The translations under genes were made by a program, and so were the position numbers. Positions 1,765-16,780 of a stretch of 46,307 bases of DNA are shown here, one piece after another. The DNA lies in IMG/VR virus record IMGVR_UViG_2721755721_000003, positions 1 to 46,307 of that record; one strand, 5' to 3'. Position 1 is the stretch's first letter. Each line of letters starts with the position of its first letter. The notes beneath the pieces are model-generated. The model made no database searches and was not told the origin of the DNA. It saw only the letters and a program-made list of their open reading frames with translations. This DNA comes from a virus (Duplodnaviria; Heunggongvirae; Uroviricota; Caudoviricetes).

Positions 1765-2007
1765 TTACTTCCTTTTCATGGCTCGTAATTTTTTCAGATG
1801 AGCTTCCTGCTCTGTTTCTGCCAGAATTTGTCGGTATTCCTGGTGATCGATCCGTTCAAACAGTTCATTAAAATCGTTTATTTTTACCGACTGTGTTCGC
1901 CCATCCATTCTTCTGTACAACACGATATTATTTATGCAGCGAATAATTTTTACCGGGTAACCGGCACTGTCGGTATACAGTTGCCCTTGATTAATCAAAA
2001 CGAACAT
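1765..2007 (-). CDS. Hypothetical protein (80 aa)
   Basis: ATG at 2007 preceded on the minus strand by an AGGAG ribosome-binding site; part of the minus-strand early-left operon. Confidence 0.5.
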   Translation of the reverse strand: MFVLINQGQLYTDSAGYPVKIIRCINNIVLYRRMDGRTQSVKINDFNELFERIDHQEYRQILAETEQEAHLKKLRAMKRK

Positions 2008-2038
2008 TTTTTCTCCTGTTCCCTGAGTTGTGAGAACT

Positions 2039-2398
2039 TCAGAGCCGTATGTTTGTAGCGGGTTCAATACTGATAATTTCTGCTGAGATAAGCATTCCGG
2101 CAAGCCATAGCTCTCCGATCAAGTTTTCATCCTTGCATTTCACGCCGCCGATATTAATGGTGGCGATGATATCGCGCTCATCCTCGACTTCTTCATAAGG
2201 CAGCGTTTCGTACAGGCTTTCAATAGCGCAACTGATAACATCGAGTCCGGTCAGGTTGCCACCGACAGTGACTTCGAATGTTTCGCGGTATTCCCTTAGC
2301 CCGAAAGTTAATCGAACGGTTTGTTTTGCCATGCGTCCGCATAACGTCAGATTTGGGTCATAGTTCATTATTTGCGGTTGAGTATTATGAGTGTTCAT
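2039..2398 (-). CDS. Hypothetical protein (about 119 aa)
   Basis: ORF with ATG at 2398 (alternative upstream start at 2470 would overlap the preceding gene). Confidence 0.45.
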   Translation of the reverse strand: MNTHNTQPQIMNYDPNLTLCGRMAKQTVRLTFGLREYRETFEVTVGGNLTGLDVISCAIESLYETLPYEEVEDERDIIATINIGGVKCKDENLIGELWLAGMLISAEIISIEPATNIRL

Positions 2399-2438: not shown

Positions 2439-3266
2439 TTATTTAACCTGGATAAAGGGTGTATTGGCACTGCTGGTCATGTATTGCGGCAGTGTGCCGT
2501 TCCATTTATTGATGGCTTCCAGCTCCATAACTCCGGGGTTCTGGCGCAGAGCTTCACCGCGTAAACGAATAGCATCGGCTTCGGCCTGGGCTTTTGTGCG
2601 AATTGCATCTGCCTGTCCGGCAGCCTCCGCACGCAACATGTTGGCTTCCGCTTCGCGCTGTTTTACTTCCTGCTCGCGTTGCAGGGTTTTCTGGTTTGCC
2701 GTGACTTTGGCGTTAATGCTGTCGATAACGGTTGGCGGGTACTCCGGTTTACCTACATAAGACAGGCTCATTACCTGAATACCGATGGGCGTCATTTCTG
2801 CCTGAATATCTTTTAGAGCTGCATCCAGTAGTTCAGATTTGCCACCGTCGATAAATTTATCAGTGGTCATTTTGCTGGCCAGCCGATTTAGTGCATCTGC
2901 TATCTTCTGGCGCAGGTCGGTGTCGGTAATGTCATCCACACCTTTGCGGTAGGTTTGAAACACCGTGGTAACTTTGGATGGATCAACCTTGTAGGCTACT
3001 CCGATGTGGTAACCAATGGTTGTTCCATCGCTCATCTGGAAACTGAATGGATCATCGTAGGTCTTCATCTGCTTAAAGGTCGGGAAGATATAAACTTCAG
3101 TGTTCCAGCCTGTCCAGTAGCGACCAACACCGACCACTTCACCGACGCCTTTGTCGTCGCCAAGTTTGTTGACTTTGATGCCCACATTACCAGGCTCAAC
3201 ACGATCACAACCGACAAGGCCAATGGCAGGCAGAACAATGGCTAAAGAAAAAATAATTTTTTTCAT
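2439..3266 (-). CDS. SPFH/band-7 (prohibitin/HflKC-like) domain lipoprotein
   Basis: N-terminal signal peptide with lipobox (AIGLVGC); SPFH-like core; C-terminal Ala/Glu/Gln-rich coiled coil (QREQEVKQREAEANMLRAEAAGQADAIRTKAQAEADAIRLRGEALRQ). Start overlaps the stop of the upstream gene. Confidence 0.75.
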   Translation of the reverse strand: MKKIIFSLAIVLPAIGLVGCDRVEPGNVGIKVNKLGDDKGVGEVVGVGRYWTGWNTEVYIFPTFKQMKTYDDPFSFQMSDGTTIGYHIGVAYKVDPSKVTTVFQTYRKGVDDITDTDLRQKIADALNRLASKMTTDKFIDGGKSELLDAALKDIQAEMTPIGIQVMSLSYVGKPEYPPTVIDSINAKVTANQKTLQREQEVKQREAEANMLRAEAAGQADAIRTKAQAEADAIRLRGEALRQNPGVMELEAINKWNGTLPQYMTSSANTPFIQVK

Positions 3267-3451
3267 CTTTTATCCTTAGTGAAAGAAAGCCCCTTATAAA
3301 TGGCATAAATGCATGGCGGGGTCAGAAACGCCAGTGCAAAGCCAGAAATTACCGCTACCGTATCCTTCATTGATATCAGAAACGGGACGAGTAATCCGTA
3401 AATGCATGCGATAATTGCCAGTGATATGACTATTCTGAAATAAATATTCAT
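3263..3451 (-). CDS. Small membrane protein (62 aa, two predicted TM helices)
   Basis: Hydrophobic segments IVISLAIIACIYGLLVPFLI and VAVISGFALAFLTPPCIYAIY; strong AGGAGG RBS; stop overlaps the SPFH gene start and its start overlaps the upstream gene stop. Confidence 0.6.
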   Translation of the reverse strand: MNIYFRIVISLAIIACIYGLLVPFLISMKDTVAVISGFALAFLTPPCIYAIYKGLSFTKDKR

Positions 3452-3726
3452 GCTCCTCCTGATATCTTTCTGATTGCCTTTTTCAACTTTTTACTGTTAT
3501 TCACGCTACAGTAAATTTCGGCAATCTCACGTGATAACATTATTTCTCCACTGTTTTTATCTATAGCAACGAGACCGGGATTGTCTCGTATGAGTTTCTT
3601 TATCATTGGCATTGCCATAAAGTCTTCTGGCGTATAGATGCGTGTATGGCGGCGAACGTGTTTTATCACAGGTGTTTTATGTTTTGACTCAACCTGAAAT
3701 ACATTAATTTTATTCTGATTTGACAT
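3448..3726 (-). CDS. Hypothetical protein (92 aa)
   Basis: ORF translationally coupled (ATGA overlap) to the small membrane protein gene; no recognisable motif. Confidence 0.5.
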   Translation of the reverse strand: MSNQNKINVFQVESKHKTPVIKHVRRHTRIYTPEDFMAMPMIKKLIRDNPGLVAIDKNSGEIMLSREIAEIYCSVNNSKKLKKAIRKISGGA

Positions 3727-3728
3727 AT

Positions 3729-4310
3729 TTAATGTGCCACTGGTGTTTCTGGCATACCATGAGTATTCAGATCGTGAATCATTTCATCCAGAAGAAGTTC
3801 AAGCCCTTCTCGTCCCATAGCAGAGACAATGAAGCCATTATCAGGATCTGCGATGAGCATTTTTTGATAGAGAAACAGAACTCGCCCCATGCCTTCAGCT
3901 TCGCCATATTTTTCAATGAATCCCCATTCGACATGGTTTTGCAGGGCAATGCGAATTGGTTCAGGGTATATACTCATGCAACCATATTTCCCCTTATAAA
4001 TAACTGCACGATATGTAGTCCCATTATCGTTAGGGATATCAACGGTGCCGTTCCTGACTTCCTCTTCATTTATAAACGTCGTAACATACAGCCAGCGCCA
4101 TTGAGCAACTTTCATATCGACGGATAATTTTCCCAGCAATCCGGCATCATCCGCTTCAGCAAGGCACTGAAGAATTCTTAAACCGCGTGAATTTGGATAA
4201 TCATATTCACCATCATTAAGTCGCTGTACGGCCTCGGCATAATCTATGGTTGTATTGCCAATTTTTATACCGTATGGCGTAACTTCTGGTCGGAACTCTG
4301 AATGATTCAT
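3729..4310 (-). CDS. Hypothetical protein (193 aa)
   Basis: ATG at 4310 with AAAGGAG RBS; stop of upstream 62-aa ORF overlaps its start; no recognisable family. Confidence 0.6.
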   Translation of the reverse strand: MNHSEFRPEVTPYGIKIGNTTIDYAEAVQRLNDGEYDYPNSRGLRILQCLAEADDAGLLGKLSVDMKVAQWRWLYVTTFINEEEVRNGTVDIPNDNGTTYRAVIYKGKYGCMSIYPEPIRIALQNHVEWGFIEKYGEAEGMGRVLFLYQKMLIADPDNGFIVSAMGREGLELLLDEMIHDLNTHGMPETPVAH

Positions 4311-4495
4311 AATGTTTGCTCCTTTGCTGGTGGAATAATAGTGTAACCCGCTCTTTTTACCATCCACAAAAATGTATCCGTGCAGCCAACAAATTCATTA
4401 TCCAACAGATGTTTTGAGTGAATTACCTTCCCATTTTCAATGGTCAACAACACTCTGACTTTTTCATGTGTTATGTTCTGTTCTTTTTCTTCCAT
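4307..4495 (-). CDS. Hypothetical small protein (about 62 aa)
   Basis: ATG at 4495 preceded by GGGAG RBS; translationally coupled to the downstream 193-aa gene. Confidence 0.5.
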   Translation of the reverse strand: MEEKEQNITHEKVRVLLTIENGKVIHSKHLLDNEFVGCTDTFLWMVKRAGYTIIPPAKEQTL

Positions 4496-4701
4496 TGATT
4501 TATCTCCCATATGCTTTGCGCAAATACAGGTTGGCTATATGAAGATAAGAGTCTCCATGTTGTGCAATGAGGCAGGCTGTTTTATACGATGCCTTATTTT
4601 TCAGGAAAGTCATAACTGAGTTCCATCTGTGAATAAAGGTTGTAACAATCCCCGGCGATAAAACCGTAATAAACGTTCAGGGCATATTTGTTGTTATTGT
4701 G

Positions 4702-5058
4702 CTAATTATTTTCGGCAGCAGCTTTTGCATACTCACATGCAAAATTCAGAATTTCGCTGCCGAGTGTTTTCGTTTCGTGATTACTGGAAATATGTAATAC
4801 CTGTGTTGCATGCAATAAATGATAAACATTTACCGCAAATGAATCAGGCTCCAGACAAATGCCTTCATAATCATCTTGTTGTGAGGTTGTTTCTGTCATT
4901 GCTCCTGAAGTGCATGCGAGCCTGCTTTTGACAATTCTCTTTCCTCTAATCACTATATCGGCAACATCTATTGCCTTTACAACCTCCGGGAGAAGTTCCT
5001 GGTTTGTATAATCAAAGTTATCAACATGGAGAACAGTTATGTTTTCGAACTTTTTCAT
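4702..5058 (-). CDS. Hypothetical protein (118 aa)
   Basis: ATG at 5058 with GAGGAAG RBS; AT-rich context. Confidence 0.55.
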   Translation of the reverse strand: MKKFENITVLHVDNFDYTNQELLPEVVKAIDVADIVIRGKRIVKSRLACTSGAMTETTSQQDDYEGICLEPDSFAVNVYHLLHATQVLHISSNHETKTLGSEILNFACEYAKAAAENN

Positions 5059-5186
5059 GGCTTCCTCAGCTGACTTATATGTTCTGCTATATAGCGAGTC
5101 TCAGAAGTGTTTTCATATTGAGACTGTTTCCGCAATGATTGATAAAAATGTTCGCATGTACCTTGAGGGGCGAAGCGGCGATTATG

Positions 5187-5690
5187 TCACCATTGGTATT
5201 GGTTCTTCCGTAGAAGAGCTTCGCGAGATAAGGAGCAAACTTGTTGAGATGCGTCATGGTGTTGCTGCTCCTCACTTTTTGGTTGCTCCGGAGGAGTAAC
5301 CTCACCAGTTAACAGCCACATCGGATCGCAGCCAAGAATATTTGCCAGTGGGATAAGCATACTGATAGTTGGTTCATACTCTCCGCTCTCCCACTGGATG
5401 ATAATTTCTTCATCGAGATCGAGCAGCCTGGCGAGTTCGGCGGTTGTTAAGCCGCAGGCTTCGCGTTGGGTGCGAAGACGGTTGTTGATTGCAGAATTTT
5501 TGTTCTGTAAAAGCATTGCTGACGATAGCTTTCTGGATATGCTATTTGTCATATCCCATGCCAGTCCTGCGCATGACTCTATATCGCTAGAGAGCGTAGC
5601 ATCAGGTGTTGCTTTTGCTATTAGTGTAATGAGGCTGCCGAGGTTTTTCAGTTCTTCGAGACAGTCAAGAGTTGTAGCTTTATTGATCAT
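5187..5690 (-). CDS. XRE-family HTH protein with about 70-aa N-terminal extension; first gene leftward of the OL-like operator
   Basis: Classic XRE helix-turn-helix (LRTQREACGLTTAELARLLDLDEEIIIQWESGEYEPTISMLIPLANILGCDPMWLLTG); GAGGT RBS before ATG at 5690; sits immediately left of operator-like repeats. Confidence 0.6.
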   Translation of the reverse strand: MINKATTLDCLEELKNLGSLITLIAKATPDATLSSDIESCAGLAWDMTNSISRKLSSAMLLQNKNSAINNRLRTQREACGLTTAELARLLDLDEEIIIQWESGEYEPTISMLIPLANILGCDPMWLLTGEVTPPEQPKSEEQQHHDASQQVCSLSREALLRKNQYQW

Positions 5691-5730
5691 GAGATGATAC
5701 CTCAGTTACGAACTTTGTTTTATGGTAACT

Positions 5731-5769
5731 AAGGTATCAAGGTGTGGCAAGTGATTTTTGATACTTTGG
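5731..5769. promoter_or_regulatory. OL-like operator region (TTGATAC repeats)
   Basis: TTGATACTTTGG at 5758-5769 and an inverted TTGATACC copy at about 5732-5743; the same 12-mer recurs right of cI. Confidence 0.45.
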
Positions 5770-5793
5770 TTTCTTTTTGTGTTTTGTGTCTGG

Positions 5794-6450
5794 TCAGAAA
5801 ATATCCCACCTGGCATCAACCACAACACCTACTATTTCGCAATCATTGTCCATTTCTATGATTGGATATTGTGGATTAAGGGGCTTTAGAAACGCCTTTC
5901 CCATGTCAGAAATATATTTTTTGAATGTTGCTTCATTGGTGGATTTTTTTCTGGCGATGACGTAACACCCTGAAAAAACTTCTTTATCTGGGTTGACAAG
6001 GATCGACATTCCTTCAGGAAATGTTATTCCTACGGGCGAAGTCATTGAGTCTCCGTGCACTTCCAGCCAGAACCCCCTCTCACCAGCGTATTTTACAGAA
6101 TGCCTCCAATTATCCTGATCATACATGTTGTAGTCATCACCAGAAGTTGCGAATAATCCTGCCTGAACCCAGTTAATTACAGGGTAAGAGTGTGCTGTGT
6201 CTCTCTGTGGGCAGCTCTTAACATTATTTTCCCAATGCTTATCTTTTTCATCTCCGTTCTGAAGCCACTGCGGTGAACACCGCAGTGCAGCTGCAACTTT
6301 AAAAAGGGTGTCACCGTTGAAACTTTTTGTAAGGCCTTGCTCGGCTTTACTGATTGCAACTCTGGTGATCCCAGCTTTTTTAGCCAACGCATCTTGTGTT
6401 AACCCAGCTTTTTGCCGTGCGTTGATGAGACGTTCACCTAAAGACTTCAT
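5794..6450 (-). CDS. cI: CI-type prophage repressor (HTH + LexA-like S24 autopeptidase domain)
   Basis: N-terminal XRE HTH (LTQDALAKKAGITRVAISKAEQG) and C-terminal S24-like region (HGDSMTSP ... KK); flanked by operator repeats; start at internal ATG 6450. Confidence 0.85.
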   Translation of the reverse strand: MKSLGERLINARQKAGLTQDALAKKAGITRVAISKAEQGLTKSFNGDTLFKVAAALRCSPQWLQNGDEKDKHWENNVKSCPQRDTAHSYPVINWVQAGLFATSGDDYNMYDQDNWRHSVKYAGERGFWLEVHGDSMTSPVGITFPEGMSILVNPDKEVFSGCYVIARKKSTNEATFKKYISDMGKAFLKPLNPQYPIIEMDNDCEIVGVVVDARWDIF

Positions 6451-6472
6451 TTTTCTTCTCCTCTCATGGCTG

Positions 6473-6547
6473 TTGATACTAAAGTAACAGAATTTCTTGA
6501 TACTTTGGATTCCTGTGGTTAACATCGTTGGATAACAAAGTATCTGG
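6473..6547. promoter_or_regulatory. OR-like operator/promoter region (three TTGATAC-type sites)
   Basis: TTGATACTAAAG 6473-6484, TTGATACTTTGG 6497-6508, inverted GATACTTTGTTATC within 6531-6547; lies between divergent cI and the cro-position gene. Confidence 0.5.
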
Positions 6548-7517: not shown

Positions 7518-7905
7518 TCACTCAACATCAATAACGGGGAGCTGTTTCGCATAAAACGGCTCTGAAACATCCAAGAACAGTTCTAAAGATATCAGCAGCT
7601 ATATGATCATTTCAAGACCAAATATTGATTCTGCAATTTCGGGACGTTACACTGTCTCTGCACCTTATAAAGCGGGTGCCGGGCGTGGAAACCCGAAATT
7701 CAATATAGAGCACAACCGCGCTCATGCGGTTTTTTCGTGTCATGAGCATCGTTACGCCCAAATTATGGTGGGGCGTGCAGGGCCAACTTCGGTTGGGCCG
7801 GGTTCTATGTTGACCGGTATTTCCACCCCTGTACGTCTCACCACCTATATGGTCGTGGAAAGCCTTGGTGGTGAGTTCATTGAATTCAACATAGGGGCTG
7901 TCACC

Positions 7906-8457
7906 ATGACTACTCTCCCAACCCAATCTCGCCCTGAAATCACGATTATCAATGGTCGCGTTGTCACCACATCTCTTGCAGTAGCTAATTACTTTACTAA
8001 ACGGCATGAGCGGGTTTTAGATAGAATTAGAAACCTCGAATGTTCCGCTGAATTTACTGAACACAATTTTGTGTTAAGTGAATACACCGACGCATCAGGC
8101 CGCAAACTCCCTTGTTACCAAATCACCCGCGACGGTTTTGCGTTTCTTGCCATGGGCTTCACTGGTAAACGTGCTGCCCAGTTCAAAGAGGCATACATCA
8201 ACGCCTTTAACCAGATGGAGAAGAATTTATCTGGTGCTGACGCGGTTGATATGTCAGCTGTCGCACGAAACGCCAGAGGCGTATACCTGCATTTGCGTGA
8301 AATCCATCAAATCTGGACAAGCCAGCTTTATCCAATGCTTAAGGCCGTTGAATCTCCGCTGGCTAGCAAACTGTACGACCGTGTTGGTGATGCTGTTTTT
8401 GGCGCTGCACTTGTTGATTCCAGGCTGAATGGTTCTGACAAGGAGGTTCGCCCATGA
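7906..8457 (+). CDS. Second Rha-family-like regulatory protein (183 aa)
   Basis: Motif VTTSLAVANYFTKRHERVLDRIRNL resembles the Rha N-terminal domain; ATG at 7906 with RBS; the upstream part of the 284-aa track ORF is judged non-coding. Confidence 0.55.
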   Translation: MTTLPTQSRPEITIINGRVVTTSLAVANYFTKRHERVLDRIRNLECSAEFTEHNFVLSEYTDASGRKLPCYQITRDGFAFLAMGFTGKRAAQFKEAYINAFNQMEKNLSGADAVDMSAVARNARGVYLHLREIHQIWTSQLYPMLKAVESPLASKLYDRVGDAVFGAALVDSRLNGSDKEVRP

Positions 8458-8869: not shown

Positions 8870-9165
8870 ACTGTTTTCAGTTTGTGTGCGGATGTGCTTT
8901 CGATAACCCGATTCAGCGCCTGATTATGTTGCGTGTTTTGATGTCGGGTTCTTCAGACGGTGAAGGCGAGAGAGTTATTGATCATCAGGTGCTTGCTGAT
9001 TTCTGCTGTTGTTCTAAGCAAGCGATATTCAGGGAAACCCTGGCACTGGAAAGAGCTGGTTATCTTCATATCCGAAAAATTGCAACGCTTACTATTGATG
9101 CAAAAGCCAGACTACAACCTGCGCGTGGCTACACAATTCTCATGCCGCGGAAGGAGGTTGTATGA
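8866..9165 (+). CDS. Hypothetical small protein, possible winged-helix DNA-binding (99 aa)
   Basis: Segment QAIFRETLALERAGYLHIRK looks like a winged-helix recognition region; overlaps the O-like gene start. Confidence 0.4.
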   Translation: MNCFQFVCGCAFDNPIQRLIMLRVLMSGSSDGEGERVIDHQVLADFCCCSKQAIFRETLALERAGYLHIRKIATLTIDAKARLQPARGYTILMPRKEVV

Positions 9166-10154
9166 GCCGTTACGCCCCCACACCGGAAGTTATGGCTATT
9201 GGTCAAATTAATATTTCCGGCAATGTTACACCTGCGAACTGGTGGAAATATATTCGACTACCCAGTGGGCGTCCGGATGCGACGGCTATCGCTCTGCTTT
9301 CAGAGATCGTTTACTGGTACCGCCCGACAGAGGTCAGGGATGAGCACACCGGAGCGTTGCTGGGATATCGCAAGCGTTTTCAGGGCGACAAACTGCAAAG
9401 AAGCTACCAGGCGTTTGCTGAGCAGTTTGGTTTCGGGAAAAGGGAAACCGCAGATGCGCTGAAGCGTCTGCGCGATGCAGGGTTTATTACTCTGGATTTA
9501 CGCACGGTGGAAATGCTCGATGGGGTGAAATGCAGCAATATTTTGTTTGTCGGGATCAACCCACAGGCAATTGCGGCCATCACCACACCTTCTTCTGTTT
9601 CGCCAGAAAGTAACAGCAATAATGCAATCAGCGATACAGCTATTACGTTAAAACGGAACACCCCCCGACGTCATAACGGAACAGGGGATACGCCGAATGT
9701 TGATACAAATACAGAGATTACTACAGAGATTACAACGGAGACTAAAAACACTATTGATGCATCCGCTGACGCGTCTGCGCCAGCGCGTTCTGCCCGACAG
9801 GAATATTCACCGGAATTTGAACAGGCCTGGCAGGAATATCCCAAACGTGCTGGTGGCAATTCCAAGTCAGCAGCCTTCAAAGCCTGGAAAGCCCGTATCA
9901 GGGAGGGAATAAAACCGGAGACCATGCTTGATGGCGTGAAGCGGTATGCCGCCTGGGTACGTGCTACAGGAAATACCGGCACACAGTTCGTGAAGCAGGC
10001 TGCGACGTTCTTTGGACCCGATCGTCACTTCGAAGATTACTGGCAACAGCCAGCCGCTCACGGAGGTGGGCGACAGCGACAGGTCGATGTCCTGGCTGGC
10101 CTGGGAGCCATGTCTGACAAATTCGGTAAATCCAGTAACAAATTGACATTCTGA
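9162..10154 (+). CDS. Replication initiation / replisome organizer protein (lambda O-like)
   Basis: Position upstream of the DnaC-like and DnaB-like genes; internal tandem repeats in the middle of the gene (candidate iterons). Confidence 0.7.
   Translation: MSRYAPTPEVMAIGQINISGNVTPANWWKYIRLPSGRPDATAIALLSEIVYWYRPTEVRDEHTGALLGYRKRFQGDKLQRSYQAFAEQFGFGKRETADALKRLRDAGFITLDLRTVEMLDGVKCSNILFVGINPQAIAAITTPSSVSPESNSNNAISDTAITLKRNTPRRHNGTGDTPNVDTNTEITTEITTETKNTIDASADASAPARSARQEYSPEFEQAWQEYPKRAGGNSKSAAFKAWKARIREGIKPETMLDGVKRYAAWVRATGNTGTQFVKQAATFFGPDRHFEDYWQQPAAHGGGRQRQVDVLAGLGAMSDKFGKSSNKLTF
9711..9746. repeat. Three tandem about 12-bp repeats (ACAGAGATTAC[T/A], third copy degenerate) inside the O-like gene; candidate ori iterons
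   Basis: acagagattact / acagagattaca / acggagactaaa, encoding TEITTEITTETK. Confidence 0.35.
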
Positions 10155-10164
10155 GGTGACAGCG

Positions 10165-11064
10165 ATGATGACGATTGACCAACGTGAGAAACAAACAAGA
10201 CTACAGGCGCGAATGGATGAGTTACGGGCAGAAATGGATGAGTTACGGGCAGAGATTGCATTTGCTCAGAAGGGCGAAAAGCCATGGCCTTATCGTTCCT
10301 GCCTGATGCGTGAAGGTCGCGGATATTGCGAAAAACACGGTAAATATCGTACGCATATACTGGTGTGGATCGATCGTAATGGCGAGGACAGAGAAAAAAT
10401 TTCATGCTGCCCTGACTGCTTGATCGCTGAGGCCAGTGATTTGACCATGGAACTGTCGTCCCTCAAGGCGGAAGAACTGACTGATAACGCCGGAATTGCT
10501 CTGCGTTTTCGGGACTGCGAGTTTGATAATTATCTGGAGGTTAATCCTGACGCAGCCAGAAATCTTGCGGCCTGTCGCCGCTATGCGGAGAACTGGCCAG
10601 ATATGCTGGAGAACGGTACCAGTCTTGTTATGACCGGCAGTTGCGGTACCGGGAAAAATCATCTGGCGGTATCAATGGCAAAACACATCATCCGTAACTA
10701 TCTGGCCAGTGTGGAGATCACCGACGTGATGCGCCTTACCCGGGCTGTGAAAAACTGCTGGCGGAATGACAGTGAAAAAACAGCGGATGACGTCATTGAG
10801 CATTATGCGTCACTGGATTTGCTGATTGTCGACGAAGTCGGCGTTCAGTTTGGCAGTGCGGCTGAAATGGCCATTTTGCAGGAAATTATCAATGCCCGGT
10901 ATGAGGGTATTTTGCCAACTATCCTGATCAGCAACCTTTCACCGGAAGAATTGTGGGCGTTCATCAGTCCCCGGATTGCCGACAGGATCACCGATGGCGG
11001 GCGCAACTGGTTGTCGTTTAACTGGCCCAGCTACCGTTCTCGTATCGGAGGTGTTGCCGCATGA
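10165..11064 (+). CDS. DnaC/IstB-like AAA+ helicase loader
   Basis: Walker A (GSCGTGKNHLA) and Walker B (LLIVDEVG); N-terminal Cys cluster; start codon choice (10156 GTG vs 10165 ATG) uncertain. Confidence 0.8.
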   Translation: MMTIDQREKQTRLQARMDELRAEMDELRAEIAFAQKGEKPWPYRSCLMREGRGYCEKHGKYRTHILVWIDRNGEDREKISCCPDCLIAEASDLTMELSSLKAEELTDNAGIALRFRDCEFDNYLEVNPDAARNLAACRRYAENWPDMLENGTSLVMTGSCGTGKNHLAVSMAKHIIRNYLASVEITDVMRLTRAVKNCWRNDSEKTADDVIEHYASLDLLIVDEVGVQFGSAAEMAILQEIINARYEGILPTILISNLSPEELWAFISPRIADRITDGGRNWLSFNWPSYRSRIGGVAA

Positions 11065-12461
11065 CCAGCCAGAACACCCCGGCATGGCGTAACGATGACC
11101 TGGAAGGCGCTGTCATCGGTGCGTTTTTTCTGCGTGGGGCCGATCCGGAAGTGATGGATATTCTGGCCACACTTCCGGCGGATGTATTTTTTGTGCGTCA
11201 GTACCGGGATATTTACGCGGGGATTTGCAGACAGGCTCGCATATCCGGCGTCATTGACCCCGTACTGCTGTGCAATGAGATGCCGGAACTTGCCCCGGTG
11301 ATTACCGACACCGGACGCAAAACCTGGGTGAAGTCTTCACTGGAGCACTATGTCGCAGCGTTGCGGCGCAATGCCGCACTGCGCGATGCAGAAAAAACAC
11401 TGACTGAAGCATTACAGAATTTACGTGATGCGTATACCTGTGAAGCAGCCGAGGATGCCCTGAAGGATGCGCAGAACATGATGGCCTCACTGTCGACCGG
11501 AAAGGGCGTCATTCAGCCGGTTCACATTGATGATGTCCTTCCGGAAGTGGTCGACCGTGTTGAATGCCGCAATCAGGGACTGGAGAAATCCAGGGCGCTG
11601 ATGACCGGTATTGATGAACTGGACGCAAAAACGGGCGGTATGGAGCCCGGAGACCTGGTATTCATTGCCGCCCGTCCTTCGATGGGGAAAACCGAACTTG
11701 CGCTGGACATCATCGACAAGGTGACTGAGCAGGGGCATGGCGTGCTTCTGTTCACCATGGAGATGGCGAACATCCAGATTGGTGAACGTATGGTGTCTGC
11801 TGCCGGTGGAATGCCGGTATCCCGTCTTAAGTCTGTTGCCCGTTTTGAAGATGAAGACTGGGCGCGTTTCTCGCAGGGCGTGGGACGAATGACGGGGCGT
11901 AATATCTGGATGGTGGACCAGGCAAACCTGACCATTGATGAGATATGTGCAACCACGAAGCACCACCGGATGAAACACCCGGAAACGGCGCTGGTGGTGG
12001 TCGATTACCTCGGCCTGATTAAAACCCGCAGCACGGGGCGTCACGACCTTGCGGTGGGGGAAATCTCAAAGGGACTTAAAAGCCTGGCAAAATCCGGCGG
12101 TTTTCCGCTGATTGCTCTGAGCCAGCTCTCCCGCGGCGTGGAATCCAGACCCAATAAACGCCCAATGAACTCGGACCTGAAAAACTCCGGGGAAATCGAG
12201 GCGGATGCCGACATCATTCTGATGCTTTACAGGGATGAGGTATACAACCCGGAAACTCAGGCCAGAGGCATAGCAGAAATCAACATCACGAAACAGCGTA
12301 ATGGCACGCTCGGGACCATTTACCGGCGTTTTCATAACGGACATTTTCTGCCTGTGGACCAGGAGAGTGCCCGGGTTCTTTCCACACCCATGACGCCGGG
12401 CAATCCGCGCAGATACAGCAATAACCGCATGTCGGGCAGTAAAACGGAGCGTTTATTTTGA
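11061..12461 (+). CDS. DnaB-family replicative DNA helicase
   Basis: 466 aa; Walker A (ARPSMGKTELALD), DnaB-like C-terminal RecA-fold motifs (VVDYLGLIK, SQLSRGVESRPNKRP). Confidence 0.9.
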   Translation: MTSQNTPAWRNDDLEGAVIGAFFLRGADPEVMDILATLPADVFFVRQYRDIYAGICRQARISGVIDPVLLCNEMPELAPVITDTGRKTWVKSSLEHYVAALRRNAALRDAEKTLTEALQNLRDAYTCEAAEDALKDAQNMMASLSTGKGVIQPVHIDDVLPEVVDRVECRNQGLEKSRALMTGIDELDAKTGGMEPGDLVFIAARPSMGKTELALDIIDKVTEQGHGVLLFTMEMANIQIGERMVSAAGGMPVSRLKSVARFEDEDWARFSQGVGRMTGRNIWMVDQANLTIDEICATTKHHRMKHPETALVVVDYLGLIKTRSTGRHDLAVGEISKGLKSLAKSGGFPLIALSQLSRGVESRPNKRPMNSDLKNSGEIEADADIILMLYRDEVYNPETQARGIAEINITKQRNGTLGTIYRRFHNGHFLPVDQESARVLSTPMTPGNPRRYSNNRMSGSKTERLF

Positions 12462-16531: not shown

Positions 16532-16603
16532 GGCCCTTTAGCTCAGTGGTGAGAGCGACTCATAATCGCCAGGTCGCTGGTTCAAATCCAGCAAGGGCCA
16601 CCA
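16532..16603 (+). tRNA. tRNA with CAU anticodon (Ile2/Met type, ileZ-like), atypically short
   Basis: Acceptor stem GGCCCTT/AAGGGCC, T-arm GCTGG-TTCAAAT-CCAGC, CCA end, anticodon loop CTCATAA; about 4 nt shorter at the D-arm/anticodon-stem junction than the E. coli tRNA-Ile2 I recall. Confidence 0.6.
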
Positions 16604-16703: not shown

Positions 16704-16780
16704 GCGTTGTTAGCTCAGCCGGACAGAGCAATTGCCTTCTAAGCAATCGGTCACTGGTTCGAATCCAGTACAGCGCGCCA
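16704..16780 (+). tRNA. tRNA-Arg (anticodon UCU)
   Basis: Canonical cloverleaf: acceptor GCGTTGT/ACAGCGC, D-arm GCTC...GAGC, anticodon stem ATTGC/GCAAT with loop CTTCTAA, T-arm ACTGG-TTCGAAT-CCAGT, encoded CCA. Confidence 0.85.

What the first reader, a model, noticed from the sequence alone, without database searches (positions are those of the whole stretch)
3729..5058. Early-left arm carries only uncharacterized AT-rich genes; no exo/bet/gam/kil/cIII recognisable
Between the SPFH operon and the immunity region lie a translationally coupled pair (about 62 aa then 193 aa) and a 118-aa gene, each with a good RBS, none matching a family I recognise. In lambda this interval holds the recombination and host-takeover genes, so this is accessory or replacement content.
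Basis: partly seen in the sequence, partly recalled or inferred. Interest (0 to 1): 0.55.

Follow-up and report, generated by a model that had tools for sequence, protein, structure and literature searches.

The report
Satellite-type Cnr-like gene in prophage
The unnamed genes left of this E. coli prophage's repressor are real, and the largest is a distant relative of Cnr, the protein by which the phage satellite P4 controls its own DNA copy number, which is odd because this phage has no primase of the kind that sits next to Cnr in satellites.

Summary
Window 3729-5058 (minus strand) carries three conserved, AT-rich genes with good ribosome-binding sites: 118 aa, then 62 aa overlapping (ATGA) 193 aa. 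None matches Pfam, NCBIfam or PADLOC. No lambda exo/bet/gam/kil/cIII/ral/N homolog exists anywhere in the window.

The window is a phiP27-like prophage, and the genes are phiP27 L08, L07 and L06.

The genes are not orphans:
- **193-aa protein.** It belongs to a ~200-aa family that, in most genomes sampled, lies immediately upstream of the primase of Gram-negative PICI satellites. This family is a remote homolog of DUF5375 / P4 ORF106, which I identify as Cnr (hhalign 96%, E 3e-9; same synteny; both families end in a C-terminal His).
- **62-aa protein.** It is a free-standing copy of the C-terminal domain of a larger PICI protein.
- **118-aa gene.** It travels with the cI-adjacent HTH gene, not with the pair.

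The toxin-antitoxin idea is not supported, because the pair is separable.

Best reading: accessory early genes drawn from a pool shared with satellites. The 193-aa protein is most likely a protein-binding modulator of a replication initiator, possibly acting in trans on resident satellites. That function is inferred, not shown.

The parts
3729..4310 (-). gpB, 193 aa (phiP27 L06, phrog_1515): long-form homolog of DUF5375 / P4 ORF106 (identified here as Cnr). It adds an N-terminal beta-hairpin plus two helices and an inserted three-stranded sheet (residues 88-114), and keeps a conserved flexible tail G-x-P-x-x-P-x-x-H-COOH.
   Evidence: ORF and SD. Codon-position bias 74/58/185. AF2 pLDDT 87.6, with the tail 189-193 below 50. 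Family and conserved residues. hhalign to DUF5375 96.1%, E 3.3e-9. PICI homologs hit both phrog_1515 and phrog_5991.
4307..4495 (-). gpA, 62 aa (phiP27 L07, phrog_340). Its stop overlaps the gpB start (ATGA). It is a free-standing copy of a domain that forms the C-terminus of a 213-aa PICI protein.
   Evidence: BLASTP 44% identity over 43 aa, E 1e-12, to L005:5134-5775 residues 169-211. That protein also hits phrog_340 at E 6e-15. Weak hit to phrog_4792 anti-repressor, E 0.004.
4506..4613 (-). Conserved small ORF, 36 aa (MTFLKNKASYKTACLIAQHGDSYLHIANLYLRKAYGR). Its stop lies within the gpA ribosome-binding region. Unannotated in the RefSeq relatives, annotated in phage PhiR49_2.
   Evidence: Substitutions 12/5/26 by codon position; 22 synonymous against 14 non-synonymous codon changes; bias lost in other frames. 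PhiR49_2 annotation. A variant with the same C-terminal LFLRKAYGR sits in L040 ahead of a different gene.
4702..5058 (-). gpC, 118 aa (phiP27 L08, phrog_5451): small alpha/beta N-domain, disordered linker, C-terminal helical hairpin. Always found directly after the cI-HTH gene pair.
5187..5690 (-). HTH167 (phiP27 L10-like, phrog_4739): Xre/DicA-type HTH protein between cI and gpC. Probably the first gene of the leftward operon and the constant partner of gpC.
   Evidence: Pfam HTH_3 E 4e-11. PHROG and NCBIfam hits. Synteny. N-terminus resembles the phrog_10110 75-aa family of P4-like satellites.
5722..5750 (-). Promoter-like site TTGCCA-17-TACCAT upstream of HTH167: candidate leftward early promoter.
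   Evidence: It is a consensus match only; the number of such sites in the region is not above shuffles.
3448..3726 (-). 92-aa gene starting 2 nt after the gpB stop. It links the pair to the downstream membrane-protein/SPFH genes in one operon. A 59%-identical homolog follows the gpB homolog in a Rahnella prophage.
   Evidence: L016 6565-6834.
5057..5299 (+). Opposite-strand 80-aa ORF (phrog_6104) in a cassette between gpC and HTH167. It is antisense to the last 37 codons of HTH167. Coding status unresolved.
   Evidence: E 1e-49. Cassette limits 5146-5303. Too few substitutions for a coding test.

Best explanation
The interval is the promoter-proximal part of one leftward early operon of a phiP27-like prophage. 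In place of lambda's Red/Gam/Kil/CIII block it carries small accessory genes from a gene pool shared with phage satellites (Gram-negative PICIs and P4-like elements).

**gpB (193 aa).** It is a long-form member of the Cnr superfamily (P4 ORF106/cnr, DUF5375). It keeps the helical Cnr core and the invariant C-terminal ...P-x-x-H tail, and adds an N-terminal extension and a beta-sheet insertion. By analogy with P4 Cnr, which controls P4 copy number and (from my own knowledge) acts through the primase-helicase alpha, gpB most likely works by protein-protein contact with a replication initiator. The conserved, flexible His-terminated tail would serve as a docking peptide. Because this phage has no alpha/DUF927-type primase, the likeliest target is the primase-helicase of a co-resident satellite, acted on in trans early after induction.

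**gpA (62 aa).** It is a stand-alone copy of a C-terminal domain of a PICI protein from the regulatory zone upstream of the primase (the 'Bro zone'). It is probably a protein-interaction module.

**gpC (118 aa).** It is a partner of the cI-adjacent HTH protein rather than of the pair.

**Shown:** gene reality, operon layout, homology, synteny, the shared terminal His, and the absence of an alpha-type primase from this window. **Inferred:** the binding partner, the direction of the effect, and everything about gpA and gpC function.
For: gpB family and structure:
- gpB is in phrog_1515 (E 7e-89).
- An HMM search of 1.84 billion representatives finds 116 clusters of ~200-aa single-domain proteins.
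- The AF2 model is confident (pLDDT 87.6, pTM 0.82). Residues 189-193 score below 50, so the conserved tail is flexible.

Context of gpB homologs:
- In 21 species-representative genomes, 16 homologs lie in int-alpA-(AntA/ASH/DUF4222)-[homolog]-primase-SSB-PerC islands; a DUF927-type primase lies directly downstream in 15 of the 16. Five lie in prophage early-left operons.
- P4 ORF106 (DUF5375) sits 14 nt upstream of the primase gene alpha. P4-like loci show the same order.
- PMC8628076 states that cnr controls P4 plasmid copy number, and that the cnr family lies between epsilon and alpha in 90% of P4-like elements.

Homology to DUF5375:
- hhalign of the gpB family against DUF5375: 81.5% with one sequence, 88.8% with four, 96.1% (E 3.3e-9, 93 columns) with about 55.
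- Controls score 0.4% or less (reversed alignment, gpA alignment, gpC alignment).
- PICI homologs hit both phrog_1515 (E 3e-43) and the P4 ORF106 PHROG, phrog_5991 (E 9e-6).
- The last residue is His in 54 of 62 full-length gpB representatives and in 52 of 55 DUF5375 proteins.

Other points:
- P4 alpha and the PICI primase share the primase domain (34% identity, E 5e-45).
- No alpha/DUF927-type primase is present in the window.
- PICIs with this gene arrangement occur in E. coli: 76 genomes hold the full query.
- gpA matches the C-terminus of the PICI 213-aa protein at E 1e-12.
- gpC follows cI-HTH in every locus examined.
Against: - No experiment or interaction prediction supports any binding partner.
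- The window protein itself gets no DUF5375 hit in Pfam. The two family members that do hit score only E 0.16. The link therefore rests on profile-profile comparison, synteny and the terminal His.
- That Cnr acts through alpha is from my memory of Terzano 1994 and Ziegelin 1997, which I could not open.
- The PICI primases differ from P4 alpha outside the primase domain, so the Cnr-alpha contact may not carry over.
- Phage-borne copies form their own cluster, which fits retargeting to a phage or host partner equally well.
- The family's conserved partner could be a host protein.
Confidence: 0.4

Rival explanations
1. gpB keeps the Cnr-like fold but acts in cis on this phage's own replication, or on host replication proteins (the O-like initiator, the DnaC/DnaB-like pair at 9162-12461, or host DnaB/DnaG/SSB). 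It would time or limit early replication. The satellites and the phage would then simply share a general replication modulator.
For: - The gene is under purifying selection in a phage without an alpha-type primase.
- Phage-borne copies cluster apart from the main PICI clade, as expected if they were adapted to a different partner.
- Core residues and the tail are conserved across both contexts, which would also fit a common host partner.
Against: - The gene lies in the early-left operon, about 5 kb and one divergent promoter region away from the replication genes. In satellites it is glued to the primase gene.
- Nothing links Cnr to O/DnaB-type systems.
Confidence: 0.2
2. The block is lysogen-expressed or early-expressed defence / superinfection-exclusion cargo, analogous to lambda rexAB/sieB. 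In particular, the HTH167-gpC pair next to cI would form a regulator-effector module, and gpA/gpB would have functions unrelated to replication.
For: - Position immediately beside cI, where lambda carries rexAB and sieB.
- Low GC typical of morons.
- Constant HTH-gpC pairing, with overlapping stop/start in L041.
- The HTH domain resembles HTH components of defence systems and antitoxins.
- Mosaic replacement of neighbouring cargo between relatives.
Against: - No PADLOC model matches gpA, gpB or gpC.
- The PADLOC hits of HTH167 cover only the generic HTH domain.
- gpC has no recognisable effector domain.
- gpB's homology and synteny point to satellite replication control.
Confidence: 0.15
3. 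The block is a functional replacement of lambda's recombination / anti-RecBCD genes. gpB would be a divergent single-strand annealing protein or a Gam-like inhibitor, and gpA a small host-takeover protein like Kil or CIII.
For: - Same map position as exo-bet-gam-kil-cIII.
- gpB has a beta-beta-beta-alpha element (residues 89-135).
Against: - No PHROG, Pfam or tblastn similarity to Red-beta, RecT, Erf, Sak, Gam, Abc2, Kil or CIII.
- No partner exonuclease is present.
- The beta-sheet is an insertion into a Cnr-like helical core.
Confidence: 0.07
4. gpA-gpB is a type II toxin-antitoxin pair, as the first reader suggested testing.
For: - Translational coupling through an ATGA overlap, and a small-then-larger gene order.
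- One distant locus has a 74-aa gene with a recorded ParE_like Pfam hit upstream of the gpB homolog.
Against: - The upstream small ORF is unrelated from locus to locus: DUF4222, 87-aa, 77-aa, 74-aa proteins.
- gpA-like and gpB-like genes are separated by several genes, including the SPFH gene, in L040.
- Most PICI loci have gpB homologs without any gpA domain.
- No toxin or antitoxin family matches.
- gpB's stop is equally tightly coupled to the next gene, so coupling here reflects operon compaction.
Confidence: 0.03

Closest known systems
Cnr (copy number regulation protein) of satellite phage P4 = ORF106, Pfam DUF5375 (PF17345), phrog_5991
   Same: - Profile-profile homology over the whole Cnr length: gpB 64-179 aligns with Cnr 7-101 (96.1%, E 3.3e-9).
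- Shared motifs: WRW/YRR-hydrophobic-VA, E-x-G-F/Y-x-x-x-x-G, and L-S-x-x-G.
- Both end in P-x-(L/V/M/A)-H-COOH.
- The PICI members of the gpB family sit immediately upstream of a Zn-ribbon/Toprim primase-helicase gene, exactly like cnr and alpha.
   Different: - gpB is almost twice as long. It has a 63-residue N-terminal beta-hairpin/helix extension and a 25-residue three-stranded sheet inserted after the first core helix.
- It does not reach Pfam's threshold for DUF5375.
- In this window it is in a temperate phage's early-left operon with no alpha-type primase anywhere.
- Its activity is untested.
Unnamed ~200-aa gene family directly upstream of the primase gene in Gram-negative PICIs (at the border of the Bro and Replication zones of PMC10111431)
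   Same: - Same family, phrog_1515; 26-35% identity to gpB over the full length.
- Same conserved residues: G34, D37, R72, W73, R120, E128, Y148, G166 and the terminal H193.
   Different: - The PICI copies are next to a DUF927-type primase and usually lack a gpA-like neighbour.
- The phage copies are next to xis/int-proximal cargo and mostly cluster separately.
- No function has been published for either: the PHROG is 'unknown function', and the papers read do not name the gene.
Lambda early-left genes exo, bet, gam, kil, cIII, ea10, ral
   Same: Map position: between the immunity region and xis/int, transcribed leftward, made of small tightly packed genes.
   Different: No sequence similarity to any of them anywhere in the window. 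No PHROG of recombination or host-takeover function matches.
Bro-network / anti-repressor proteins of phages and satellites (relevant to gpA)
   Same: - gpA residues 14-56 match the C-terminal 43 residues of a 213-aa PICI protein that lies upstream of the primase in the PICI regulatory ('Bro') zone (E 1e-12).
- gpA weakly matches the C-terminal part of anti-repressor phrog_4792 (E 0.004).
   Different: - gpA is only that domain, without any N-terminal Bro/KilA/ANT module.
- No Pfam model covers it.

Membership tests
P4 Cnr / DUF5375 (PF17345, phrog_5991) | Detectable sequence homology to DUF5375 members | tested here: met
   hhalign 96.1%, E 3.3e-9, with controls at 0.4% or less. Earlier runs gave 81.5% and 88.8%. 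PICI members of gpB's PHROG hit phrog_5991 at E 9e-6 and 2e-3.
P4 Cnr / DUF5375 (PF17345, phrog_5991) | Passes the curated Pfam threshold for PF17345 | tested here: not met
   No hit for the window protein at E<=1. Only 2 of 53 family members give E 0.16. gpB is therefore a superfamily relative, not a DUF5375 member in Pfam's sense.
P4 Cnr / DUF5375 (PF17345, phrog_5991) | About 106-aa single helical domain | tested here: not met
   gpB is 193 aa, with an N-terminal extension (1-63) and a beta-sheet insertion (88-114).
P4 Cnr / DUF5375 (PF17345, phrog_5991) | C-terminus ...P-x-x-H with His as the last residue | tested here: met
   gpB ends PETPVAH. 54 of 62 family representatives end in His, as do 52 of 55 DUF5375 proteins.
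P4 Cnr / DUF5375 (PF17345, phrog_5991) | Gene immediately upstream of a Zn-ribbon/Toprim primase-helicase gene | tested here: not met
   Met for 15 of the 16 PICI-borne homologs. The window has no such primase; gpB is followed by a 92-aa gene and the SPFH genes.
P4 Cnr / DUF5375 (PF17345, phrog_5991) | Negative control of element replication through the initiator alpha | not testable with these tools
   Needs genetics or biochemistry. The property itself is from PMC8628076 (copy-number control) and from my own knowledge of Terzano 1994 and Ziegelin 1997.
Lambda Red/Gam/Kil/CIII early-left functions | Sequence homology to Exo, Bet, Gam, Kil, CIII (or to PHROGs with those functions) | tested here: not met
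   tblastn of the lambda proteins against the whole window gave nothing better than E 0.3 for these genes. The PHROG hits are all 'unknown function'.
Type II toxin-antitoxin pair | Two genes conserved as an adjacent pair across relatives | tested here: not met
   Upstream partners differ from locus to locus. gpA-like and gpB-like genes are separated in L040. The gpA domain is absent from most PICI loci.
Type II toxin-antitoxin pair | Match to a known toxin or antitoxin family | tested here: not met
   No Pfam, NCBIfam or PADLOC hit for gpA or gpB.
Rad52-like single-strand annealing proteins (Sak/Red-beta/Erf) | Structural match to the Rad52-like core | tested here: not met
Bro-network / anti-repressor C-terminal domain (gpA) | Homology to a domain found at the C-terminus of larger Bro-zone proteins | tested here: met
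   BLASTP E 1e-12 to residues 169-211 of the 213-aa PICI protein. That protein hits gpA's phrog_340. The link to proteins named anti-repressor is weak (phrog_4792, E 0.004).

The most novel reading that the evidence does not exclude
The phage-borne long Cnr-like protein is an anti-satellite weapon. Made early from the leftward operon, it docks through its His-terminated tail onto the primase-helicase of resident PICI or P4-like satellites and blocks their replication. This would protect the helper phage from satellite interference. It would be a phage counter-measure built from the satellite's own copy-number regulator.
Probability: 0.15. Interest if true: 0.8.

Novelty: new variant of a known kind. 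Interest (0 to 1): 0.5.

Why it matters
Three families currently labelled 'unknown function' turn out to be linked: phrog_1515, phrog_5991/DUF5375, and the gene in front of the primase in Gram-negative PICIs. One of them includes a gene with published genetics, P4 cnr.

This gives a concrete, testable function for a gene present in at least 76 complete E. coli genomes that carry these satellites and in about 6% of complete E. coli genomes through phiP27-like prophages, a group that includes Shiga-toxin-converting phages.

If the phage copy acts on satellites, it would be, to my knowledge, the first enterobacterial helper-phage factor aimed at satellite replication. If it acts on the phage or the host, it would define a wider class of replication modulators. 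Their invariant C-terminal His is an obvious handle for mutagenesis.

Tried and rejected
**Uninformative for gpA, gpB and gpC**
- Pfam, NCBIfam and PADLOC scans.
- PDB sequence-profile searches for all three families and for DUF5375.
- The afdb50 library was unavailable.

**Ideas tested and dropped**
- gpC C-terminus related to the HTH167 N-terminus: BLASTP negative.
- P4 ORF151 as a relative of gpB: hhalign 0.1%.
- gpA related to the small ORFs upstream of other gpB homologs: negative.
- Structured RNA or a terminator in the 4496-4701 and 5059-5186 gaps: z-scores +0.5 and 0.0, and no minus-strand terminator in 3200-5800.

- Alignment-based genome scans with wide alignments failed for lack of a conserved stretch.
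- Three contig look-ups returned only short contigs.
- The first viral scan with P4 ORF106 returned only near-identical copies.
- I could not open the primary Cnr papers. Literature searches for DUF5375 or the Cnr mechanism found only PMC8628076.

**Unresolved**
- A coding test of the plus-strand ORF 5057-5299 was inconclusive because its cassette is 97-99% conserved.
Full report
**1. What the window is**

The region matches phage phiP27 at 92-97% identity over genes L06-L11. It matches a prophage beside yecE/yecN/cmoA in E. coli MS8345 at 99.6%. The left arm reads, on the minus strand from right to left:
- cI-like LexA-family repressor (5794-6525)
- HTH protein of 167 aa (5187-5690)
- gpC (4702-5058)
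- a 36-aa ORF (4506-4613)
- gpA (4307-4495)
- gpB (3729-4310)
- a 92-aa gene, a 62-aa membrane protein, an SPFH lipoprotein, DUF5406, DUF4222, xis and int

**2. Check of the observation**

Reading the sequence:
- gpC has GAGGAAGCC before its ATG.
- gpA has GGGAG 8 nt before its ATG.
- gpB has AAGGAG 8 nt before an ATG that overlaps gpA's stop as ATGA.

The interval is 40.2% GC against 51.2% for the window, the 4th percentile of equal-sized windows.

The genes are not chance ORFs:
- The block occurs in 326 of 5426 complete E. coli genomes.
- Against four relatives, substitutions concentrate at third codon positions: gpB 74/58/185, gpA 40/28/55, gpC C-terminal half 5/2/23. Shifted frames lose the signal.
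- The N-terminal half of gpC is nearly invariant at DNA level and cannot be judged that way. It is retained in homologs only 45-65% identical. I therefore take the full 118-aa ORF as the gene, although PGAP annotates only its last 65 codons in MS8345.

Pfam, NCBIfam and PADLOC give nothing for the three proteins. PHROGs places them in phrog_5451, phrog_340 and phrog_1515, all of unknown function.

Lambda's interval does hold exo, bet, gam, kil, cIII, ea10 and ral. tblastn of the lambda early-left proteins against the entire window finds only CI (E 1e-38) and a weak Int match.

- gpB's stop is 2 nt from the next gene's ATG, and that gene overlaps the following ones down to the SPFH gene. The 'pair' and the 'SPFH operon' are therefore one operon.
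- An HTH gene separates gpC from cI.
- There is an extra conserved 36-aa ORF whose stop lies in gpA's ribosome-binding region.

No minus-strand terminator-like site was found between 3200 and 5800. The only promoter-like site upstream of the block is at 5750-5722, ahead of the HTH gene. The intergenic gaps show no unusual RNA folding.

**3. gpB, the 193-aa protein**

*Family and structure*
- Close relatives are confined to Escherichia prophages.
- A profile search of 1.84 billion representatives finds 116 clusters, nearly all single-domain proteins of about 200 aa.
- Few positions are conserved: G34, D37, R72, W73, R120, E128, Y148, M151, G166 and the very last residue, H193.
- 54 of 62 full-length representatives end in His, preceded by G-x-P-x-x-P.
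- AlphaFold2 gives a confident model (pLDDT 87.6, pTM 0.82). Its order is beta-hairpin, two helices, a long helix, a three-stranded sheet, two helices, a hairpin and a final helix. The last five residues are of low confidence, so the conserved tail is flexible.

*Genomic context*

I examined 21 species-representative genomes of Enterobacterales and a few metagenomic assemblies (MAGs).
- 16 homologs lie in islands of the form int - alpA - AntA/ASH/DUF4222 - [homolog] - primase (Zn ribbon, Toprim, DUF927) - SSB - PerC. That is the Gram-negative PICI layout, and a DUF927-type primase gene lies directly downstream in 15 of the 16, 5 to about 700 nt from the homolog.
- The other five, plus the phiP27 group, lie in prophage early-left operons downstream of a cI-like gene or next to xis/int.
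- Phage-borne copies mostly cluster together (50% mean identity). They are 36% identical to the PICI copies.

*Link to P4*

In P4 itself, the gene 14 nt upstream of the primase gene alpha is ORF106, annotated DUF5375.
- One PICI homolog had a 'faint' DUF5375 record.
- hhalign of the gpB family against ORF106 alone gives 81.5%. Against four DUF5375 sequences it gives 88.8%. Against about 55 non-identical DUF5375 proteins collected from IMG/VR it gives 96.1%, E 3.3e-9, over 93 columns.
- The reversed alignment and the unrelated gpA and gpC alignments score 0.4% or less.
- The alignment covers all of Cnr (7-101) and gpB 64-179. It treats the sheet 88-114 as an insertion.
- Independently, plain hmmscan places PICI homologs in both phrog_1515 (E 3e-43) and phrog_5991, the PHROG of P4 ORF106 (E 9e-6).
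- DUF5375 proteins also end in His (52 of 55, mostly ...P-V-L-H). This is a rare shared feature.

*Is ORF106 the cnr gene?*

[quoted passage not shown] It also says the cnr family lies between epsilon and alpha in 90% of P4-like elements. In P4 that interval holds only ORF151 and ORF106. In three P4-like loci it holds DUF5375 but no ORF151 homolog. This agrees with my recollection of the P4 map (epsilon, orf151, cnr, alpha). That Cnr inhibits P4 replication through the alpha protein and stimulates alpha's DNA binding is from my memory of Terzano et al. 1994 and Ziegelin et al. 1997, which I could not open.

**4. gpA and gpC**

*gpA.* Residues 14-56 are 44% identical (E 1e-12) to the last 43 residues of a 213-aa protein. 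That protein lies two genes upstream of the gpB homolog in a PICI, and it hits gpA's PHROG. gpA also has a weak match to the C-terminal part of an anti-repressor PHROG. gpA-like ORFs occur 0.4-1.7 kb upstream of gpB homologs in three of the five prophage loci (L016, L018, L019). They are absent from the 16 PICI loci of the genome scan.

*The pair is not obligate.* The ORF immediately upstream of gpB homologs is a different protein in each lineage. In L040 the gpA-like and gpB-like genes are separated by several genes, including the SPFH gene. The ATGA coupling therefore reflects operon compaction, not an obligate pair.

*gpC.* It always follows the cI-HTH pair, and it overlaps the HTH stop in L041. 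Its model is a small alpha/beta domain, a disordered linker and a helical hairpin (pLDDT 66). Fold search was uninformative.

**5. How it most likely works**

*Shown:*
- one compact leftward operon;
- three real genes;
- gpB as a long-form relative of Cnr;
- the satellite members of its family fixed in front of the primase gene;
- a conserved flexible tail ending in His;
- no alpha- or DUF927-type primase in this window;
- PICIs with this arrangement living in the same host species.

*Inferred:* gpB acts, like Cnr, by binding a replication initiator. Lacking a cis partner, it acts in trans on satellite primase-helicases, or else has been retargeted to phage or host replication proteins. I put the homology at about 0.85. 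I put 'modulator of a replication initiator' at about 0.45 and the trans-satellite target at about 0.15-0.25.

For the other two genes the reading rests on position and pairing only. gpA is probably a protein-interaction domain. gpC with HTH167 is probably a regulator pair or an exclusion module beside cI.

**6. Comparison with what is known, and novelty**

The block is not a member of any lambda early-left family. It is not a toxin-antitoxin pair by any tested criterion.

gpB fails Pfam's threshold and the size criterion for DUF5375. It meets homology, tail and, in its satellite relatives, synteny. It is best called a new long variant of the Cnr kind, found here in an unexpected host element.

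I found no paper that names the PICI gene or links phiP27 L06 to Cnr.

**7. Verdict**

The toxin-antitoxin idea is not supported.

The useful result is the link between gpB, the pre-primase gene of the PICIs, and P4 Cnr. It turns an anonymous gene into a testable one. Interest is moderate, 0.5. It would be higher if the anti-satellite reading proved true.

Noticed in passing
window 7660-7848 (+), within ORF 7603-8457: Rfam matches above gathering score to isrK (7660-7736, 61.6 bits) and C4 antisense RNA (7761-7848, 82.4 bits), plus a weak c4 target site (7647-7699). They lie inside or ahead of an ash-like ORF to the right of cro. This is a P1/P7/P4-type RNA immunity module, the same kind reported in PICI Bro zones (PMC10111431).
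   Followed up: partly
window 4506-4613 (-): Conserved 36-aa ORF (MTFLKNKASYKTACLIAQHGDSYLHIANLYLRKAYGR) between gpC and gpA, with third-position-biased substitutions (12/5/26). It is annotated only in phage PhiR49_2. A variant with the same C-terminal LFLRKAYGR precedes a different gene in L040.
   Followed up: partly
window 5057-5299 (+) and 5146-5303: An 80-aa plus-strand ORF (phrog_6104, E 1e-49) runs antisense to the last 37 codons of the HTH gene. It lies in a cassette that phiP27 replaces with an unrelated ~520-bp segment carrying L09. The cassette is 97-99% conserved, so a coding test was inconclusive.
   Followed up: partly
window 5187-5690 (-), residues 5-36 of the HTH protein: The N-terminus of the cI-adjacent HTH protein resembles the 75-aa family (phrog_10110) that sits just upstream of cnr in P4-like satellites (BLASTP 31% over 32 aa, E 4e-5; phmmer E 2.5e-4 in a set of 18). 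This is a third link between this left arm and satellite pre-primase regions.
   Followed up: partly
window 4702-5058 (-): RefSeq/PGAP annotates only the last 65 codons of gpC in strain MS8345, and phrog_4587 covers only that half. The full 118-123-aa ORF, with a nearly invariant N-terminal 47 residues, is kept in homologs down to 45% identity.
   Followed up: yes
window 1765-2103 (-) and PICI loci L005, L008, L020-L033: DUF4222 genes occur both in this prophage's left arm and in the PICI Bro zone, in L005 directly upstream of the gpB homolog. This is another family shared between the two kinds of element.
   Followed up: no
L033 5432-5980 and 6001-6582: An Enterobacter adelaidei PICI carries two tandem gpB-like paralogs ahead of its primase.
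   Followed up: no
window 2439-3451 (-): An SPFH/Band-7 lipoprotein (Pfam E 1e-30), with a translationally coupled 62-aa membrane protein (phrog_1130), is conserved cargo of this left arm. It reappears in L040 and L041 in varying order relative to gpB. Its role is unknown.
   Followed up: no
window 16532-16603 and 16704-16780 (+): Two phage-borne tRNA genes, tRNA-Met (cat) and tRNA-Arg (tct), downstream of the DUF968/antiterminator region.
   Followed up: no
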